NCBI GenBank assembly: GCA_902523455.1 | Contig: CABYZG010000001.1 | Location: 251,023-315,022, forward strand | DNA from: an uncultured Pelagibacteraceae bacterium | GTDB taxonomy: Bacteria; Pseudomonadota; Alphaproteobacteria; Pelagibacterales; AG-422-B15 | DNA: 64,000 nucleotides | Direction of reading: 5' to 3' | Shown here: positions 58,159-64,000 of the stretch, one piece after another | Position numbering within the stretch: the stretch's first letter is position 1 | Layout of the letters: the number at the start of each line of letters is the position of its first letter | Program-made: the position numbers and the translations under genes | The notes under the pieces: generated by a model | Databases searched by the model: none | What the model was told of the DNA's origin: nothing | What the model saw: the letters and a program-made list of their open reading frames with translations, nothing else

Positions 58159-59964
58159 ATGCCTAGATATTCAAAAGAATTTATTGGAGAAATTAAATCA
58201 AGATTACGCGTCTCAGATGTTGTTGGAAAGTTTGTAAAACTTACTCAAAGAGGAAATGAGTTTGTCGGGCTAAGTCCATTTAAAAATGAAAAGACACCTT
58301 CATTCACGGTCAATGATGAAAAAGAATTCTATCATTGTTTTAGTAGCGCTGAACATGGTGATATATTTTCTTTTTTAATGAAACATAAAAATATGTCTTA
58401 TCCAGAGTCAATTGAATACTTAGCAAGCCAAGCAGGTTTGAATCCTGAAACTGGTATTATTCGAGATCCAAATTATGTAGAAAAAGATTTTTCAAGTTTA
58501 AAAAAAATAATTAACGAAGCTAACAAGTATTTTAAGGATCAACTAAATGCTAGTTCAGAAGCTAAAAAGTATATAGATAAAAGATCAATTAATGAGAATA
58601 TAATTAAAAAATTTGAATTAGGCTATTCTGGAAATGGCAATGATAACCTATATAAACATTTGATTGAAAAAGGAATGAGTATTGATGATGCGATCTCTAT
58701 TGGTCTAATTAAAAAATCAAATAAGAAAAAAGGTGAATTTTATGATTTCTTTCGTAATAGATTTATGTTTCCAATTAAAGATTACAAATCAAACATTATT
58801 GCTTTTGGAGCCAGAGCTCTAGATAATTCCAATATAAAATATATAAATTCATCAGATAGTCCAATTTTCAAAAAAAGTTTTCAACTTTATAATTTAAATC
58901 TTGCAATTGAGGAAAATAGAAAGCCAAAAGATTTAATTATTGTTGAAGGATATATGGATGTTATCACTCTATATCAAAATAACTTTAAATCATCTGTAGC
59001 GCCATTAGGTACAGCACTTACAAATTATCAACTTGAACGAGCTTGGAAAGTTTGTCAAAACCCTATAATCATGTTTGATGGAGATGAAGCTGGTCAAAAA
59101 GCAGCACAGAGAGTTGCATTACTTGCATTGAATAATTTATTACCTGATCATTCCCTTCGATTTTGTATATTGCCTAAAGATTATGATCCAGATGATTATT
59201 TAAATAAGAATAGCCCATCAAGCTTGCAAGATGTTATTGATAATTCTTTATCATTATCTGAATATATCTGGGATACAGAACTTGAAAAAGAAGACATTTC
59301 CATACCTGAGAAAAAAGCTGGTTTTGAAAAAAGGATAAGAATACTAATAAACAAAATAAATAACAAAACAGTACGTGAATATTATAACAAATTTTTTAAT
59401 GATAAATTAAGTGAACTAAAATTTAATAGAAATATTTCCTACGATGTAAATTATCAAAGAAAAAAAAATAGGATTTCTAGTGAAATGCTCGCTAGCGACA
59501 GAGTTAAAAAGCAAAGCCATGAATCTGTTGTTCGTGAGAAAATCATGTTAATCTGTTTAATTGAGAATCCGTTCTTAATTGCGAAGTACTCGGAAGAACT
59601 AGGAAAAATTCGCTTTAATGATCTTAATTTGTCATCATTGGTATCTGAAATTCTTGAATTCTCAGCTTCTAATGTTGATAAAGAGCTTGAAAACTTTGAT
59701 TTTAAGTCTTATTTAATCGAAAGGGGATTAAATCAGGAGATCACATATATATTTCAATCCAAGCTATTAAGTACTTATAGGTCTATAATTAAGAACGAAA
59801 AAGTGGAGGTAGAAAGAAGCTTTATTAGTCTTTTAGATTTACATAAAATTTTAGTTGAGGAAAATGACCTAGACATTGCTTTAAATGATCTAGAAGAAAA
59901 AATGGACGAAAAAAGTTTTGAAAATTTTATGAGAATAAAAAAAGAAAGTATAAGCAAAAATTAA
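58159..59964 (+). CDS. dnaG: DNA primase (zinc-ribbon ligands degenerate)
   Basis: N-terminal [13 protein letters not shown]...YHCF region, TOPRIM domain ([22 protein letters not shown]), and dnaG-rpoD synteny. Confidence 0.92.
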
Positions 59965-59965
59965 A

Positions 59966-61981
59966 ATGAAGAAAAGAGGCAGAAAAAAAAAGCAGGTCAA
60001 AGCTGAAGCTGAAAGCTTACAGGTACAAGCAAATGATCAAGATGGTCCTGTCCTAGATTTAGAAAAATCAATAATAAAAAAGCTCATTAAACAAGGTAAA
60101 AAAGACGGTTATCTCACCCACGAGATGATAAAAAAGTCTTTTCCTGAAGATAAATTTACTTCTGAACAAATTGAACAATATACAACAAAACTATCTCAAG
60201 TTGGGTTTGATATCATTGACTCTGATGACTCTGATAATGACGATGATAAAGATGACGAGTCAAATTCAGTAAAATCAGGAACAGAAAAAACAGATGATCC
60301 AGTTAAATTATATCTCAGAGAAATGGGAACAGTTGATCTACTATCTCGTGAGGGTGAAATTGCAATTGCTAAACGAATTGAAGCCGGTCAAGAAGCAATG
60401 ATTTCTGGGTTATGCGAAAGCCCACTTACTCTGCAGGCTATACTTAATTGGAGAGATGACATAGTTGCAGAAAAAATAACTTTAAGAGAAGTTATCGATC
60501 TAGAGTCATTATTCGAGGAGTCCCCAAATAAAAAGGAACTCAGCAAAAAAATAAAAGAAGCAAAAAAAAGAAAAGAACAGGAAGAAAAAGAAGAAATAAG
60601 AAAAAGAAAAGAAGCGGAAAAAAAATCTTCTACCTACGGTGATGATACAGAGCCAATGATTGAAACTTCCTCGGATCAAGTAATTGAGGAATATGAGGAT
60701 GCTGATGATGAATTAAACGTTTCAATTGCTATAATGGAAGAAGAGTTAAAGCCCCAGATTCTTGAAACATTTAAGAAATTAAATAAGAGTTTTAAAAAGC
60801 TACAAAAGCTGCAAAAAGATAAAATTGCATTCCAGGAAAAGGGCAAAGAATTCCCTTCAAGATCTGAAAAAAGTTATCAGGCTTCTAAGGCTGTCGTAGT
60901 TGAATTGATTAAAGGCTTGCAAATAAATACTAATAAAATTGAAGAGTTAATAAACAAGTTATACGTAATTAATAAAGAAATTGTATCTTTGGAAGGCAAA
61001 TTATTAAGACTTGCAGTTCAATATAAGATCTCTAGAGACGAATTCTTAGTTAAATACATTGGAAATGAAAATAATCCCTATTGGTTAAGAAAGATTACTA
61101 GACTTTCTGGGTGGGAAAAATTTGTTAAGGAAGAAAAAAATAATATAAAAAAAATAATGAACGATGTTAGAGCCGCTGCAAGTAATATAGGATTAACACT
61201 TAATGAATTCAAAAGAATTGTTAGTAATGTACAAAAGGGTGAGAGAGAATCAAGTATCGCTAAAAAAGAAATGATTGAAGCTAACCTGCGATTAGTAATT
61301 TCCATTGCAAAAAAATATACAAATAGAGGCTTACAATTTTTAGACTTAATTCAAGAAGGTAATATTGGTTTAATGAAAGCTGTGGATAAATTTGAATATA
61401 GAAGAGGTTATAAGTTTTCAACCTATGCAACTTGGTGGATCAGGCAAGCAATTACTCGATCAATAGCGGATCAAGCTAGAACTATTCGCATACCGGTGCA
61501 TATGATAGAAACAATCAATAAGATCGTAAGAACACAAAGGCTTCTTCTAAATGAAATTGGTAGGGAGCCAACACCTGAAGAAATATCTAAAAAATTAAAT
61601 ATGCCTCTTGAAAAAGTCAGAAAAGTTCTAAAGATTGCAAAAGAGCCTGTTAGCCTTGAAACTCCAGTTGGCGACGAGGAAGATAGTCACCTTGGTGACT
61701 TTATTCAAGATGAGAATGCTGTAATTCCAATTGATGCAGCGATTCACTCTAATTTGAGACAAACTACTACTAAAATATTATCGTCTTTAACACCACGTGA
61801 AGAAAGAGTATTAAGAATGAGATTTGGTATTGGTATGAATTCAGACCACACACTTGAAGAAGTTGGACAACAATTTTCTGTTACAAGGGAGAGAATTAGG
61901 CAGATTGAAGCAAAAGCACTCAGAAAACTCAAACACCCAACTCGTGCAAAGCTTTTAAAGAGCTTCTTAGATAAAAACTAG
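59966..61981 (+). CDS. rpoD: RNA polymerase primary sigma factor
   Basis: 671 aa with an acidic region 1.1/NCR and region 2 ([37 protein letters not shown]). Region 4 is also present. Confidence 0.97.
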
Positions 61982-62021: not shown

Positions 62022-62098
62022 GGGCCCATAGCTCAGTTGGTTAGAGCCCTCCGCTCATAACGGAGTTGTCCTAGGTTCGAGTCCTAGTGGGCCCACCA
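62022..62098 (+). tRNA. tRNA with CAT anticodon (elongator Met or lysidine-modified Ile2)
   Basis: Hand-folded 77-nt cloverleaf. Acceptor is GGGCCCA/TGGGCCC, D arm is GCTC-AGTTGGTTA-GAGC, and anticodon arm is CTCCG-CTCATAA-CGGAG. T arm is CTAGG-TTCGAGT-CCTAG, and CCA is encoded. It is not an initiator, because 1:72 is paired. C4:G69 and C5:G68 resemble E. coli tRNA-Ile2, so the identity is ambiguous. Confidence 0.92.
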
Positions 62099-62104
62099 AG
62101 AAAA
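62053..62104 (+). repeat. direct repeat copy 1 (attL-like): tRNA anticodon loop through CCA plus AGAAAA
   Basis: The 52 nt GCTCATAACGGAGTTGTCCTAGGTTCGAGTCCTAGTGGGCCCACCAAGAAAA are identical to 62851-62902. Confidence 0.9.
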
Positions 62105-62145
62105 CTGTGATAATTTCTATAGTCTAACTTAAATATAACAATTCG

Positions 62146-62163
62146 TGCGGGATATGTGCGGGA
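62146..62163 (+). repeat. TGCGGGA-TATG-TGCGGGA tandem heptamer motif (left copy)
   Basis: Read directly from the sequence, 41 nt after repeat copy 1. The same architecture recurs at 62762-62779. Confidence 0.8.
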
Positions 62164-62223
62164 CCCCTACTTGTCTTTTCGTTTATAACGAATAATATTT
62201 CTTTTAAATAATGCTAAATTTTT

Positions 62224-62631
62224 ATGATAAAAAAACTTCAAAATAGTCCGTCAGGAAAATTTTTAAATTTTAAATTTATGAAAGAAGAGAATGGGATTTA
62301 CTTTTTTGAAATAATTTTTCCACCCGAGACGGCAAGTCCACTCAATTTAGTTCAAGGTGGAATGATCGATGCCGCTTTAGACGAGGCCACATCTATGACA
62401 GCATATATTACTTTTAAAGAAGAAAAACTCCCCTTCACAACAGATCATCATGTTTTATTTCATAGGCCAATGCCGTTAGGTAAAGCCACTATTCAAACTA
62501 AAATTATAAAATATGGTAAAACGGTTACGACAATTGAGGGAAAGTTATTTGATCAGAACGAAAAGTTGGTCGCAACCATGCTTCACACTGCTTTGCCAAC
62601 TAGTATACCAAATCAGTCTAACCGTCTATAG
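62224..62631 (+). CDS. PaaI/4HBT-type hot-dog thioesterase
   Basis: 135 aa. LVQGGMIDAALDEATSMTA resembles the (H/Q)GG...D.a.g motif of PaaI-family thioesterases. No obvious SD, and Met19 is an alternative start. Confidence 0.65.
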   Translation: MIKKLQNSPSGKFLNFKFMKEENGIYFFEIIFPPETASPLNLVQGGMIDAALDEATSMTAYITFKEEKLPFTTDHHVLFHRPMPLGKATIQTKIIKYGKTVTTIEGKLFDQNEKLVATMLHTALPTSIPNQSNRL

Positions 62632-62761
62632 GTCCTAAGTCATCTAATTCCCTACGACACAATTCATCTTCTCTCATGCTACGCTTACGCTACTTGAAAG
62701 CAAAAGAGAAAATACTATAGTAAAACACCTCCTCTCTATACTTACTCTTATCAATTGTTTG

Positions 62762-62779
62762 TGCGGGATCTATGCGGGA
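62762..62779 (+). repeat. TGCGGGA-TCTA-TGCGGGA tandem heptamer motif (right copy)
   Basis: Read directly from the sequence, 71 nt before repeat copy 2. Orientation and 4-nt spacer match the left copy. Confidence 0.8.
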
Positions 62780-62850
62780 TAAATTTTAAAAACTTATTAT
62801 TTACAGAATAAAATTTGACTCATACCATGACATTATTGTTAGTGTGCCAA

Positions 62851-62902
62851 GCTCATAACGGAGTTGTCCTAGGTTCGAGTCCTAGTGGGCCCACCAAGAA
62901 AA
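62851..62902 (+). repeat. direct repeat copy 2 (attR-like / next attL): orphan 3-prime half of the tRNA(CAT)
   Basis: Perfect 52/52 identity to 62053-62104. The sequence upstream of it does not form the 5-prime half of a tRNA. Confidence 0.9.
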
Positions 62903-62975
62903 TAGCCAAATATTATTTTTCACTTCATTATTATCTAACGCAAGTCGTAATCTGGTCGTGAATAAATTTTAAAAA

Positions 62976-64000
62976 TTAATTCATTGCCAGCATATTTAAG
63001 GCCTTAAGCTGAGTATTGATTTCTGCAATTTGAGCTTTTAATAAATCATTTTCAGTCTGAATTGTTTCATTCTTTGCCATCACTGCATCAATTTTATTCT
63101 CTAGTAAGAGATTGTCATCTCTTGCTTCCCTAACAGGCTTTGGAGCACCAAACTTAAATGTAATACCTGCCTTGAGTGTTGCATCATCACCTTCACCGTG
63201 AACAACTGATGCAGCTCCTATGTTAAATGATGCTTTTTGAAATAATTCAGGCATGGAGTCAACGAATGAGTAGTTGGCAAAATCAAAACCACATCCACCA
63301 GATATTGCTGAGGCACTGTCATGAAATCCAGTACCAAGACCACAAGTATAGCCAGCACCCTCTGCTCCAGTTGGTAGTGATGCAAATGCAGCGCCTAATG
63401 CAACAGAACTATCAATTTTTCCCATCACATCTTCACCATCTATTAAAAGATTTGTACCTGATGGGATATTAATATCGATTCTGCTTCCAGATGAATCTGT
63501 CGCATATAATTGCTGACGACCGCCAGATTCAATTGTTACGAGAGAGTTCTCACCAATATGAACACTTCCGTCAGGTTTATTTTCAATAAGTGTATTTCCA
63601 TTTGAGTCAGATATATCAAGAGATCCTAGGATGGTTGTTGTGCTTCCATCCTCTGCATCAGTACCTGTTGAAATGATAGCATCGCCACTACTGTTGCTAT
63701 TTCCATATTGTAAAAAGGTTGTTCCAGAAGTAGTAAATGTATGATCACTTGTTATAGCAGAGTTCGTTGCAATATTATAGGCAACCATTTTGTTATGAGT
63801 AGCAAGTGGAATATATATAATGCTATTAAATTCATCAACAAATGCAGTACCTGATTGATAACCACCATTAACACCAGTGTAATGTGTAAGTAATAGTGTA
63901 GATGTATTAGTCTCAGTATTGTGACTTCTAAACTCTATTTTACCACCTGAGTCAGCATACGGTGTATAGCTATAAACCGTATCTGCATAAATTTGATGTG
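62976..64000 (-). CDS. C-terminal part of a large S/T/G/N-rich fibre- or adhesin-like protein (gene continues beyond the right edge)
   Basis: I translated upstream of the track start (63788) by hand, and the frame stays open to position 64000. There is a Gly-rich segment VALGAAFASLPTGAEGAGYTCGLGTGF...LKAGITFKFG. It is followed by a ~50-aa heptad-like tail (LLLENKIDAVMAKNETIQTENDLLKAQIAEINTQLKAL). Confidence 0.7.
   Translation of the reverse strand, partial: HQIYADTVYSYTPYADSGGKIEFRSHNTETNTSTLLLTHYTGVNGGYQSGTAFVDEFNSIIYIPLATHNKMVAYNIATNSAITSDHTFTTSGTTFLQYGNSNSSGDAIISTGTDAEDGSTTTILGSLDISDSNGNTLIENKPDGSVHIGENSLVTIESGGRQQLYATDSSGSRIDINIPSGTNLLIDGEDVMGKIDSSVALGAAFASLPTGAEGAGYTCGLGTGFHDSASAISGGCGFDFANYSFVDSMPELFQKASFNIGAASVVHGEGDDATLKAGITFKFGAPKPVREARDDNLLLENKIDAVMAKNETIQTENDLLKAQIAEINTQLKALNMLAMN

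What the first reader, a model, noticed from the sequence alone, without database searches (positions are those of the whole stretch)
62022..62902. tRNA(CAT) followed by a perfect 52-bp copy of its own 3-prime half: att-like repeats around a 746-bp integrase-less cassette
Positions 62053-62104 run from the anticodon loop to CCA plus AGAAAA. They recur exactly at 62851-62902 in the same orientation. This is the classic attL/attR footprint of a tyrosine-recombinase element inserted into a tRNA 3-prime end. The bracketed DNA is tiny, though: one 135-aa PaaI-type thioesterase ORF and about 220 bp of non-coding DNA, with no integrase. To the right of the second copy a different kind of gene begins (fibre/adhesin-like, running off the window). 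The second repeat may therefore also be the proximal att of a larger island or prophage, that is, tandem accretion at one tRNA hot spot. This is the only accessory-looking site in an otherwise gapless core region. It is analogous to tRNA-targeted islands and temperate podophages reported for streamlined marine bacteria.
Basis: partly seen in the sequence, partly recalled or inferred. Interest (0 to 1): 0.72.

Follow-up and report, generated by a model that had tools for sequence, protein, structure and literature searches.

The report
Integrase-less gene cassette at SAR11 tRNA hotspot
The repeat is real: it marks a tiny one-gene cassette inserted into a tRNA gene of the ocean bacterium SAR11. 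The cassette is one of many that stack up at this site, and it has spread recently between diverged genomes although it encodes no recombinase of its own.

Summary
tRNA(CAT) lies at 62022-62098, and its last 46 nt plus AGAAAA recur exactly at 62851-62902. The repeats bracket a 135-aa hotdog-fold thioesterase gene.

Comparison with about 30 SAR11 loci shows a tRNA-anchored "additive" island. Close relatives have an empty site, with the tRNA running straight into TauD. Others carry different small cassettes or tandem arrays of up to three, each closed by the same 46-nt tRNA copy.

The thioesterase cassette is 99.2-99.6% identical between genomes whose adjacent rpoD is only 81-92% identical. It is always the cassette next to the tRNA. 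This points to recent horizontal spread, not an old fixed duplication.

The right neighbour is not a prophage or a large island. It is another single-gene cassette of about 1.3 kb, encoding a fibre-like protein.

No integrase was found within 10 kb in any locus. The cassettes nevertheless share conserved ends. The right end is a decayed tRNA 5' half. Both arms carry matched 11-nt-phased direct repeats (TGCGGGA here). In viral contigs that motif pair lies next to a tyrosine integrase gene in 4 of 4 hits.

Best reading: a cassette mobilised in trans by a tyrosine recombinase that crosses over in the anticodon loop. The recombinase was not found. Spread by homologous recombination is the main rival.

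The parts
59966..61981 (+). rpoD, the conserved left flank of the hot spot.
   Evidence: ORF list. Sigma70 Pfam domains in the orthologues. The dnaG-rpoD-tRNA(CAT) order is the same in all related SAR11 loci.
62022..62098 (+). Intact tRNA(CAT). It acts as attB and as the tRNA part of attL. It is probably tRNA-Ile2 or elongator Met, not the initiator.
   Evidence: ARAGORN and Rfam 69.3 bits. The sequence is 100% identical in L005, L085-L094, L097 and L126-L128.
62053..62098 (+). Core copy 1: 46 nt from the last anticodon-stem base pair to CCA.
   Evidence: Exact repeat. The same 46 nt close every cassette in about 30 loci.
62099..62144 (+). Left (P'-like) arm of the thioesterase cassette, called 'type A' here.
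   Evidence: Identical in L085-L092. In L093 and L094 the same cargo carries the commoner 'type B' arm, which is 11 nt longer.
62145..62163 (+). Left pair of phased direct repeats, GTGCGGGATATGTGCGGGA (TGCGGGA twice, period 11). Putative arm-type recombinase sites.
   Evidence: (D6). In viral contigs the motif pair is next to a tyrosine integrase gene in 4 of 4 hits.
62224..62631 (+). Cargo gene: a 135-aa hotdog-fold (4HBT, TIGR00369, PaaI/EntH-like) thioesterase.
   Evidence: About 70 protein clusters are 87-100% identical, and every one whose context was examined lies right after rpoD-tRNA.
62632..62757 (+). CT-rich non-coding stretch of the cassette. Function unknown.
   Evidence: No Rfam match. 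No significant fold, z = -0.64. Conserved together with the rest of the cassette.
62761..62779 (+). Right pair of phased direct repeats, GTGCGGGATCTATGCGGGA. Same motif and orientation as the left pair, at -89 and -78 from core copy 2.
62780..62850 (+). Right (P-like) arm: the conserved box TTTACAGAATAAAATTT (62800-62816) followed by a decayed copy of the tRNA 5' half (...TGTTAGTGTGCCAA).
   Evidence: Alignment of more than 20 right ends. The commonest type resembles the tRNA 5' half (0-2 of 500 shuffles reach the score), with graded decay. L087's second cassette has the same arm with different cargo.
62851..62896 (+). Core copy 2, the attR core. It is also the left boundary of the next cassette.
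62897..62975 (+). Left arm of the next, older cassette. It starts AGAAAATAGCCAAATATT and carries its own phased repeat pair, GTCGTAATCTGGTCGTGAA (62944-62962).
   Evidence: The same sequence directly follows the intact tRNA in L097 and L127, and follows core copies in L090, L091 and L106. Repeat pair scored.
62976..64000 (-). Cargo of the next cassette: a fibre-like or adhesin-like protein of about 355 aa. Its N-terminus runs off the window.
   Evidence: In L097 it is a one-gene cassette of 1265 nt closed by a further tRNA copy and followed by TauD.

Best explanation
The 52-bp repeat is the attL/attR pair of a 798-bp mobile unit: 752 nt of cassette plus one 46-nt core. It carries a single gene and is inserted into the tRNA(CAT) downstream of rpoD in a Pelagibacteraceae (SAR11) genome.

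It belongs to a family of small cassettes, mostly 0.5-1.7 kb and mostly one gene, that pile up in tandem at this tRNA. The newest lies next to the tRNA. Together they form an 'additive' flexible genomic island.

Each typical cassette is built like a complete attP without its recombinase gene:
- a 46-nt core identical to the tRNA from the anticodon loop to CCA, which restores the tRNA after insertion;
- a right arm that is a decayed copy of the tRNA 5' half;
- a left arm of a few conserved types;
- in both arms, at fixed distances, a pair of 7-9-nt direct repeats one helical turn apart. Their sequence matches between the two ends of a cassette but differs between cassettes.

Inferred mechanism: a heterobivalent tyrosine recombinase of the lambda-Int type is supplied in trans by a rare helper, which could be a temperate phage, a satellite or a tycheposon-like element. 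It binds the arm repeats and the anticodon stem, exchanges strands in the anticodon loop, and inserts or excises the cassette as a small circle.

Shown here: the repeats, the precise insertion, the presence/absence and cargo polymorphism, the tandem arrays, the recent spread between diverged genomes, the conserved arms and phased repeats, and the integrase association of the TGCGGGA pair in other viruses.

Inferred, not shown: that a recombinase acts on these sites in SAR11 today, and which one.
For: Repeat and tRNA.

Empty sites with the same downstream sequence that follows the last core copy elsewhere: L128 (RpoD 96% identical), L005.

Other occupancy states in close relatives:
- L127 and L097 have the fibre cassette only.
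- L126 has a 108-aa cassette, then a second cassette carrying an acyltransferase gene and a fibre-like gene.
- L116-L125 have the photolyase block.

Tandem arrays bounded by the 46-mer: L087 (4 copies), L100, L109, L110.

Recent spread: the cassette is 99.2-99.6% identical over all 752 nt, non-coding parts included, while the adjacent 755 nt of rpoD are 81-92% identical. High identity starts at the tRNA and stops at the core copy in at least 5 different right-hand contexts. The thioesterase cassette is tRNA-proximal in every locus.

Conserved ends shared by unrelated cargo.

Phased repeats:
- Period is exactly 11 in at least 15 left ends (+44 to +58) and 11 right ends (-86 to -93). Random segments reach this score 7% of the time.
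- The motif class matches between the two ends of a cassette: TGCGGGA, TCGTCAT or TGCAGTCAT. The position is fixed relative to the core, not to ORF orientation.

The TGCGGGATnTnTGCGGGA pair gave 4 hits in IMG/VR, all directly beside a PF00589 tyrosine integrase gene. One also has a tRNA-Leu about 150 nt away. Related phage integrases have similar phased repeats upstream of int.

An identity block running from the anticodon loop to the 3' end is the pattern Williams (2002) described for tyrosine integrases that cross over in the anticodon loop. That paper is cited in PMC8477408; its content is from my own knowledge.
Against: - No integrase was found within 10 kb of the tRNA in about 25 distinct contexts (Pfam lists; crude motif regex).
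- No viral contig or phage record carries the 46-nt core or the arms.
- Neither cargo gene was found in viral contigs.
- No excision or circle junction appeared in metagenome unitigs, which are a weak test.
- The second motif class tested (TCGTCAT) gave a single, coding, uninformative viral hit.
- Some cassettes have atypical or decayed ends: L087 cassette 3, L100 cassette 1 and L109 cassette 1.
- A published survey of SAR11 islands found essentially no integrases (PMC11796062).
- The perfectly conserved tRNA and core could instead serve as anchors for homologous recombination.
Confidence: 0.6

Rival explanations
1. Relic plus homologous recombination. The repeats are scars of past integrations by elements that once carried an integrase and have since been whittled down to their arms and one cargo gene. 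The cassettes are no longer substrates for any recombinase. They move between SAR11 genomes only by uptake of DNA and RecA-dependent recombination, using the invariant 77-nt tRNA and the 46-nt core copy as the only perfect homology between diverged genomes.
For: No integrase was found anywhere. SAR11 islands are reported to lack mobile-element genes (PMC11796062), and SAR11 recombines frequently (PMC7542561). Chimeric cassettes exist: L100_2311 has a left TGCGGGA pair and a right TGCAGTG pair, and L098 mixes tRNA-Lys and tRNA(CAT) cores. The sharp identity boundaries are also what recombination anchored in the only identical segments would give.
Against: More than 10 unrelated one-gene cargos each keep both arms, the phased repeats and an exact core. 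The two ends of a cassette carry matching repeat motifs at fixed phase, which neutral relics would lose. The thioesterase cassette is always tRNA-proximal, whereas recombination could place it at any core copy. A 46-nt anchor is near the lower limit for efficient RecA recombination (my own knowledge).
Confidence: 0.3
2. One reading: the second repeat is the proximal att of a larger island or prophage that lies to the right of the window.
For: The window ends inside the next gene, so the far side cannot be read directly. A few homologues of that gene carry weak phage-structural or YadA Pfam hits.
Against: The same left arm and gene form a single-gene cassette of 1.27 kb between the tRNA and TauD in L097, and the same in L127. 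In L126 the fibre-like gene is the last gene before TauD. No phage or integrase genes lie downstream in any relative. No relative of the gene was found in IMG/VR.
Confidence: 0.04
3. An old, fixed, non-mobile duplication of the tRNA 3' half, or an assembly artefact.
For: None beyond the absence of an integrase.
Against: Presence/absence and cargo polymorphism among close relatives. 99% cassette identity against 81-92% flank identity. The same arrangement appears in many independent single-cell genomes and metagenome contigs.
Confidence: 0.01

Closest known systems
Additive flexible genomic islands at tRNA genes (Alteromonas, PMC4898812; Methylophilaceae fGI-2, PMC10872708; SAR11 gMED islands GI-20/30/50/58, PMC11796062)
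   Same: A hot spot at a tRNA. A variable number and kind of cassettes between strains. Partial tRNA repeats downstream of each inserted cassette. Nearly identical cassettes in diverged genomes. For SAR11, the published note that islands contain tRNA partial repeats and almost no integrases.
   Different: The passages of those papers that I read describe only the repeats. Here the cassettes are mostly single genes with conserved arms, a decayed tRNA 5' half and matched phased repeat pairs. Whether this rpoD-tRNA(CAT) site is one of the four published SAR11 islands could not be checked, because figure S2 is not held.
Tycheposons of Prochlorococcus (10.1101/2020.12.28.424599)
   Same: A streamlined marine bacterium. 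tRNA-anchored islands. Elements separated only by partial tRNA copies. Newer insertions push older ones inward. Cargo is niche-adaptive. Degenerate remnants occur.
   Different: Tycheposons are defined by their own tyrosine recombinase and replication modules and are 4-200 kb long. No recombinase or replication gene is present here, and the units are 0.5-4 kb.
CIMEs (cis-mobilizable elements flanked by ICE att sites but lacking recombination genes, Streptococcus; from my own knowledge) and integron gene cassettes
   Same: Small, promoter-poor, mostly single-gene units bounded by recombination sites. They are stacked in arrays and depend on a recombinase encoded elsewhere. The expected excised form is a non-replicating circle.
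   Different: No cognate autonomous element or integrase has been identified. The sites are direct copies of a tRNA 3' part with lambda-like arms, not attC hairpins. No intI/attI platform lies next to the array; rpoD is upstream.
Temperate pelagiphages and SAR11 prophages that integrate into tRNA genes (10.1101/410191; PMC8477408; PNP1 at a tRNA-Met as cited there)
   Same: Same host group. tRNA attB with an 11-46-bp core. Tyrosine integrases.
   Different: No phage genes are present here. No phage record or IMG/VR contig holds this core. The reported targets are tRNA-Cys, Leu, Arg, Asn and a tRNA-Met whose sequence I could not compare.

Membership tests
Site-specific integrative element in a tRNA gene (tyrosine-recombinase type) | Direct repeats made of the 3' part of the tRNA flank the insert, and the tRNA stays intact at one end. 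| tested here: met
Site-specific integrative element in a tRNA gene (tyrosine-recombinase type) | Empty site in relatives, with precise boundaries. | tested here: met
   In L128 and L005 the tRNA runs straight into TauD. The same downstream sequence follows the last core copy in L085, L094 and L114.
Site-specific integrative element in a tRNA gene (tyrosine-recombinase type) | The element encodes its own integrase. | tested here: not met
   The only ORF is a thioesterase. No PF00589 gene lies within 10 kb in any related locus.
Site-specific integrative element in a tRNA gene (tyrosine-recombinase type) | Arm-type recombinase binding sites in both att arms. | tested here: inconclusive
   Matched 11-nt-phased repeats lie at fixed positions in both arms. 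The same motif pair lies beside integrase genes in 4 of 4 viral hits. Binding has not been shown.
Site-specific integrative element in a tRNA gene (tyrosine-recombinase type) | Excised circular form or a repaired site is detectable. | tested here: inconclusive
   Metagenome unitigs showed no joints. This data type cannot show rare junctions.
Additive flexible genomic island | The same chromosomal hot spot holds different numbers and kinds of cassettes in different strains. | tested here: met
   At least 14 cargo sets, and arrays of 0-3 or more cassettes.
Additive flexible genomic island | Shared cassettes are far more similar than the core genome. | tested here: met
   99% against 81-92%.
Tycheposon | Carries a tycheposon-type tyrosine recombinase, usually with replication genes. 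| tested here: not met
   No such genes were found in any locus.
Integron | An intI gene with attI next to the array, and attC sites at the cassette ends. | tested here: not met
   rpoD and a tRNA lie upstream. There is no integrase. The cassette ends are direct tRNA copies.
Prophage or phage satellite | Phage structural, replication or packaging genes. | tested here: not met
   Pfam results for the cargo. No relatives in IMG/VR and none in the phage records.
CIME-like (cis-mobilizable) element | att sites identical to those of a co-occurring autonomous element that supplies the recombinase. | not testable with these tools
None was seen in about 25 contexts.

The most novel reading that the evidence does not exclude
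SAR11, reputedly almost free of mobile elements, runs an integron-like system anchored at tRNA genes. Single-gene cassettes keep a complete attP architecture (core, pseudo-tRNA arm, phased arm-type sites in several specificity classes) but no recombinase. Rare helper integrases shuttle them in trans, at this tRNA(CAT) and at others such as the tRNA-Lys site in L098. This gives streamlined genomes a cheap way to turn over envelope and metabolic genes.
Probability: 0.4. Interest if true: 0.8.

Novelty: new variant of a known kind. Interest (0 to 1): 0.6.

Why it matters
[quoted passage not shown] Its flexible gene pool is large, yet its genomes show almost no integrases, transposases or plasmids, so how accessory genes get in and out is an open question.

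This locus gives a concrete, testable substrate. It is a 0.8-kb unit with defined ends. It has crossed between genomes that differ by about 10-20% in rpoD while itself changing by less than 1%. Many sibling cassettes carry mainly envelope, lipoprotein and adhesin-like genes.

If the phased repeats are arm-type sites, they are a handle for finding the missing recombinase and its carrier. If homologous recombination does the work instead, the invariant tRNA copies act as portable homology. That would also be a useful rule for reading SAR11 pangenomes.

Tried and rejected
- Exact look-up of the window's own thioesterase and RpoD, to extend the contig beyond 64000: neither is on record.
- rpoD-anchored scan of genome contigs: swamped by other Alphaproteobacteria.
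- Search for an attP-bearing phage: the core 46-mer, 25-mer and 19-mer and the type-B arm in IMG/VR found only phage tRNA genes, one unrelated partial tRNA (L004), or nothing. blastn and megablast against 50,697 phage records found only tRNA genes or nothing.
- Cargo proteins in IMG/VR: none.
- Rfam and RNA folding of the non-coding parts: nothing.
- Promoter and terminator scan: at chance level.
- Laying metagenome contigs on the locus: unitigs are too short, and no excision joints appeared.
- Second repeat class (TCGTCAT pair) in IMG/VR: one hit, inside a coding region, uninformative.
- Literature search for TGCGGGAT together with 'arm-type': nothing.
- Morris et al. 2020 (PNP1 att site) is not held.
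- Considered and rejected: prophage remnant with phage genes, integron, transposon or MITE (no inverted ends), fixed duplication, assembly artefact.
Full report
**1. Observation**

The window has two tRNA genes. One is tRNA(CAT) at 62022-62098 on the + strand (Rfam tRNA 69.3 bits). It lies directly after dnaG (58159-59964) and rpoD (59966-61981).

The 52-mer 62053-62104 recurs exactly at 62851-62902 in the same orientation. Two matches were found, against none in 100 shuffles. The repeat starts at tRNA nucleotide 32, the last pair of the anticodon stem, and includes the anticodon loop, T arm, acceptor 3' strand and CCA (46 nt), plus AGAAAA.

Between the copies lies one ORF, 62224-62631, 135 aa. 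It is a hotdog-fold thioesterase: Pfam 4HBT at 1.8e-9, TIGR00369 above its cutoff, and the nearest solved structure is 2pim, a PaaI-related protein. The second copy is not a tRNA gene (20 bits against a gathering score of 29).

**2. Organism and comparative set**

G+C is about 30%. The best rpoD match in reference genomes is a Pelagibacteraceae single-cell genome (L005).

Homologues of the thioesterase form about 70 clusters, 87-100% identical. Wherever context could be fetched, they sit directly after rpoD-tRNA(CAT). More contexts came from three sources:
- a metagenome scan for partial core copies (16 loci);
- homologues of the right-hand gene;
- close RpoD relatives.

Together these give roughly 30 loci and about 25 distinct arrangements.

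**3. The site is a polymorphic insertion hot spot**

- L128 (RpoD 96% identical) and L005 are empty. The tRNA is followed at once by the TauD gene.
- The sequence after CCA in L128 (AAAAAGATAAATTTTAACCCTTATATC...) is the same one that follows the last core copy in occupied loci such as L085, L094 and L114. The insertions are therefore precise.
- L085, L086 and L094 have the thioesterase cassette and then TauD.
- L097 and L127 have only the fibre-like gene between the tRNA and TauD.
- L126 (RpoD 98%) has a 108-aa gene cassette, then an acyltransferase gene and a fibre-like gene.
- L087 has four copies of the 46-mer bounding three cassettes.
- L100, L109 and L110 carry arrays of two or three cassettes.

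At least 14 different cargo sets were seen. Most cassettes are 0.5-1.7 kb with one gene. Many cargo proteins have signal peptides, lipoprotein boxes or transmembrane segments. Pfam recognises only Sel1 and MORN repeats among the ten cargo proteins scanned. Separately, the precomputed Pfam lists name a photolyase, an FG-GAP/ASPIC protein, an ABM protein and an acyltransferase/SGNH protein in other cassettes.

**4. The right neighbour in the window**

After the second copy the window reads AGAAAATAGCCAAATATT..., followed by a minus-strand gene. Its family is about 320-440 aa long, and the window's own copy is about 355 aa.

In L097 exactly this arm follows the intact tRNA. There the gene forms a 1265-nt cassette closed by another tRNA copy, here with 60 nt of homology, and then comes TauD. 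L127 is arranged in the same way.

So the window is an L097-like arrangement into which the thioesterase cassette was later inserted at the tRNA. A large island or prophage to the right is not supported. The AGAAAA that extends the repeat from 46 to 52 nt is only the shared beginning of two different left arms.

**5. Recent horizontal spread**

Over all 752 nt, coding and non-coding, the thioesterase cassette is 99.2-99.6% identical between genomes whose adjacent 755 nt of rpoD are only 81-92% identical. Two examples: window against L087, 99.2% against 83.4%; L093 against L094, 99.1% against 80.9%.

High identity begins at the tRNA and ends at the core copy, whatever lies to the right: TauD, the fibre cassette, a 107-aa cassette, a 219-aa ORF or another sequence. 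The thioesterase cassette is the tRNA-proximal one in every locus that has it.

The fibre cassette behaves in the opposite way. It is more diverged (75-78%) than rpoD (90-91%) in the same genome pairs. That is expected for an older insertion or for a surface protein under diversifying selection. Together these results exclude an old fixed duplication.

**6. Anatomy of the cassette ends**

Right ends of more than 20 different cassettes align over about 60 nt. The consensus is TTTACAGAcTAAAATTTATTACATAaCCTAGCTTAAAGGTTAAAGCTCACA, followed by the core. The 31 nt before the core resemble the tRNA 5' half: for the best-preserved ends, 0-2 of 500 shuffles reach the observed score. There is a graded series from an exact GGTTAGAGCCCTCC (L097), through GGTTAAAGCTCACA, to the window's TGTTAGTGTGCCAA.

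Each cassette therefore ends in a pseudo-tRNA. Its 5' half has drifted, while its 3' 46 nt are exact in most copies and differ by at most 1-3 mismatches in a few, older or decayed ones. The border between the two parts lies at the anticodon loop.

Left ends fall into a few types. The commonest, 'type B', reads A[GA]TAATTCAATGACTTAgGtCAT...CTTTCGAAAT.AAACC. It follows the tRNA or a core copy in at least 10 loci with unrelated cargo. The window's arm, 'type A', is a shorter variant. L093 and L094 carry the same thioesterase cargo with a type B arm that is 11 nt longer.

**7. Phased repeat pairs**

In the window, GTGCGGGATATGTGCGGGA lies at 62145-62163, which is +47/+58 from the core. GTGCGGGATCTATGCGGGA lies at 62761-62779, which is -89/-78 from the second core. 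TGCGGGA occurs only three more times in the whole 64-kb window, counting both strands.

The same design recurs in other cassettes:
- The period is always 11 nt.
- The left pair lies at +44 to +58 in at least 15 distinct left ends. The right pair lies at -86 to -93 in 11 right ends. Random segments of the same loci reach this score 7% of the time.
- The motif differs between cassettes but matches between the two ends of one cassette. TGCGGGA occurs with the thioesterase and the L110 MORN cargo. TCGTCAT or GTCGT.A occurs with the L087 107-aa cargo, L105 and the fibre cassettes. TGCAGTCAT occurs in L114, L100 and L106.
- The position is fixed relative to the core, not to the cargo ORF, which can lie on either strand.
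- The two left-arm types differ by 11 nt, so helical phase is kept.

This is the layout expected of arm-type sites in an attP for a lambda-Int-like recombinase.

**8. Independent support for the repeat motif**

Searching IMG/VR for TGCGGGATMTRTGCGGGA gave four hits in unrelated, G+C-rich viral contigs. About that number of hits is expected by chance, by my own rough estimate. Their placement is not chance.
- In L129, L130 and L131, two or three phased copies lie 30-60 nt upstream of the start of a PF00589 tyrosine integrase gene. In L131 a tRNA-Leu lies about 150 nt beyond.
- In L132 the pair follows the integrase stop codon.

Phage relatives of these integrases show similar phased repeats just upstream of int. 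Mannheimia phage PHL101 has TTGCACACA three times. Cylindrospermopsis phage Cr-LKS3 has TT.CGTCA twice. A second SAR11 motif class gave one uninformative hit.

**9. What is missing**

No integrase was found in the window (crude regex). None lies within 10 kb of the tRNA in any locus (Pfam lists). No phage record or viral contig carries the core, the arms or the cargo. Metagenome unitigs gave no excision junctions, but they cannot show rare forms.

**10. Mechanism**

The most likely account has four steps:
1. A tyrosine recombinase supplied in trans binds the arm repeats and the anticodon-stem half-sites.
2. It exchanges strands in the anticodon loop.
3. It inserts a circle of about 0.8 kb into the intact tRNA, whose 3' part is replaced by the identical cassette copy.
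4. Later arrivals push earlier cassettes outward.

Candidate helpers are the tyrosine-recombinase elements reported near tRNAs in Pelagibacter (PMC11796062 notes one integrase; PMC11876622 reports 585 regions; PMC9618062 describes satellites). Known pelagiphages use other tRNAs (10.1101/410191; PMC8477408).

The main rival is that the recombinase is long gone and the cassettes now move by homologous recombination anchored in the invariant tRNA and core. That explains the missing integrase and the chimeric cassettes (L100_2311; the mixed tRNA-Lys/tRNA(CAT) array in L098). It does not explain the maintained matched, phased repeats or the strict tRNA-proximal position. I put about 0.6 on the first account and 0.3 on the second.

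**11. Relation to known systems and novelty**

The locus meets the definition of an additive flexible genomic island (PMC4898812, PMC10872708). A 2025 paper already states that four SAR11 islands contain partial tRNA repeats marking cassette insertion, and that mobile-element genes are virtually absent (PMC11796062).

It works like a tycheposon island or a CIME/integron array. It fails the defining tests for tycheposon (own recombinase), integron (intI, attI, attC) and prophage.

I did not find the following described in the papers I could read:
- the cassette architecture (pseudo-tRNA arm, conserved arms, matched phased repeats in several classes);
- the link of one repeat class to integrase genes;
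- the size of the identity contrast (99% against 81-92%).

I therefore rate the finding a new variant of a known kind, with interest 0.6.

Noticed in passing
window 62022-62098: ARAGORN labels the tRNA 'Met' from its anticodon alone. It has a G1-C72 pair and no GGG/CCC run in the anticodon stem, so it is not the initiator. Its C4-G69 and C5-G68 pairs are, from my memory of the E. coli TilS determinants, typical of the lysidine-modified tRNA-Ile2. Similar phage tRNAs are annotated as Ile or as Met.
   Followed up: partly
L098 9800-12560 (minus strand): A second hot spot of the same kind lies at tRNA-Lys(TTT) beside the suf operon. The order is tRNA-Lys, a fibre-like gene, a tRNA(CAT) 46-mer with fibre-type arms, a second fibre-like gene, then a slightly decayed tRNA-Lys 3' half. 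The array mixes cores of two different tRNAs.
   Followed up: partly
window 62976-64000 (-); P0071-P0190: The fibre-like protein family is about 320-440 aa long. Members have a signal peptide, a Gly/Ser/Thr-rich body, a YadA-anchor-like segment (AAFASLP...GYTCGLGTG) and a C-terminal coiled coil. There are many paralogues per genome. The proteins diverge faster than RpoD. Most members have no Pfam, NCBIfam or PDB match.
   Followed up: partly
L087 2493-6526; L116-L125 12133-16287; L098 6201-8648: A block of photolyase, 237-aa, FG-GAP/ASPIC and ABM genes appears in three settings: as the third cassette with atypical ends (L087), directly after the tRNA without a second core copy in an abundant Tara clone (L116-L125), and in part near the tRNA-Lys island (L098). 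In L087 it is followed by a 32-aa TauD fragment, which looks like a deletion scar.
   Followed up: no
L116 12087-12132; L095 905-950: Some lineages carry a compensatory change in the T stem of the tRNA (CCCAGG...CCTGG instead of CCTAGG...CCTAG). This would reduce core identity with the cassettes described here.
   Followed up: no
window 62632-62757: A CT-rich non-coding stretch of about 125 nt lies between the thioesterase stop codon and the right repeat pair. It is conserved with the cassette but has no ORF, no Rfam match and no significant fold.
   Followed up: partly
L004 380-430 (minus strand): A 5.4-kb viral contig carries only the 3' part of a related tRNA(CAT), from the anticodon stem to CCA. 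It may be an attP for a different host lineage.
   Followed up: no
L136 (Mannheimia phage PHL101) about 185-225; L135 (Cr-LKS3) about 1270-1295: Phased direct repeats (TTGCACACA three times; TT.CGTCA twice) lie just upstream of the integrase start codon in characterised phages of the same integrase family. The motifs resemble the SAR11 cassette classes TGCAGTCA and TCGTCA.
   Followed up: partly
window 60531-60623: There is an A-rich low-complexity repeat inside rpoD, a Lys/Glu-rich insertion in the non-conserved region. It looks ordinary for SAR11 sigma-70.
   Followed up: no
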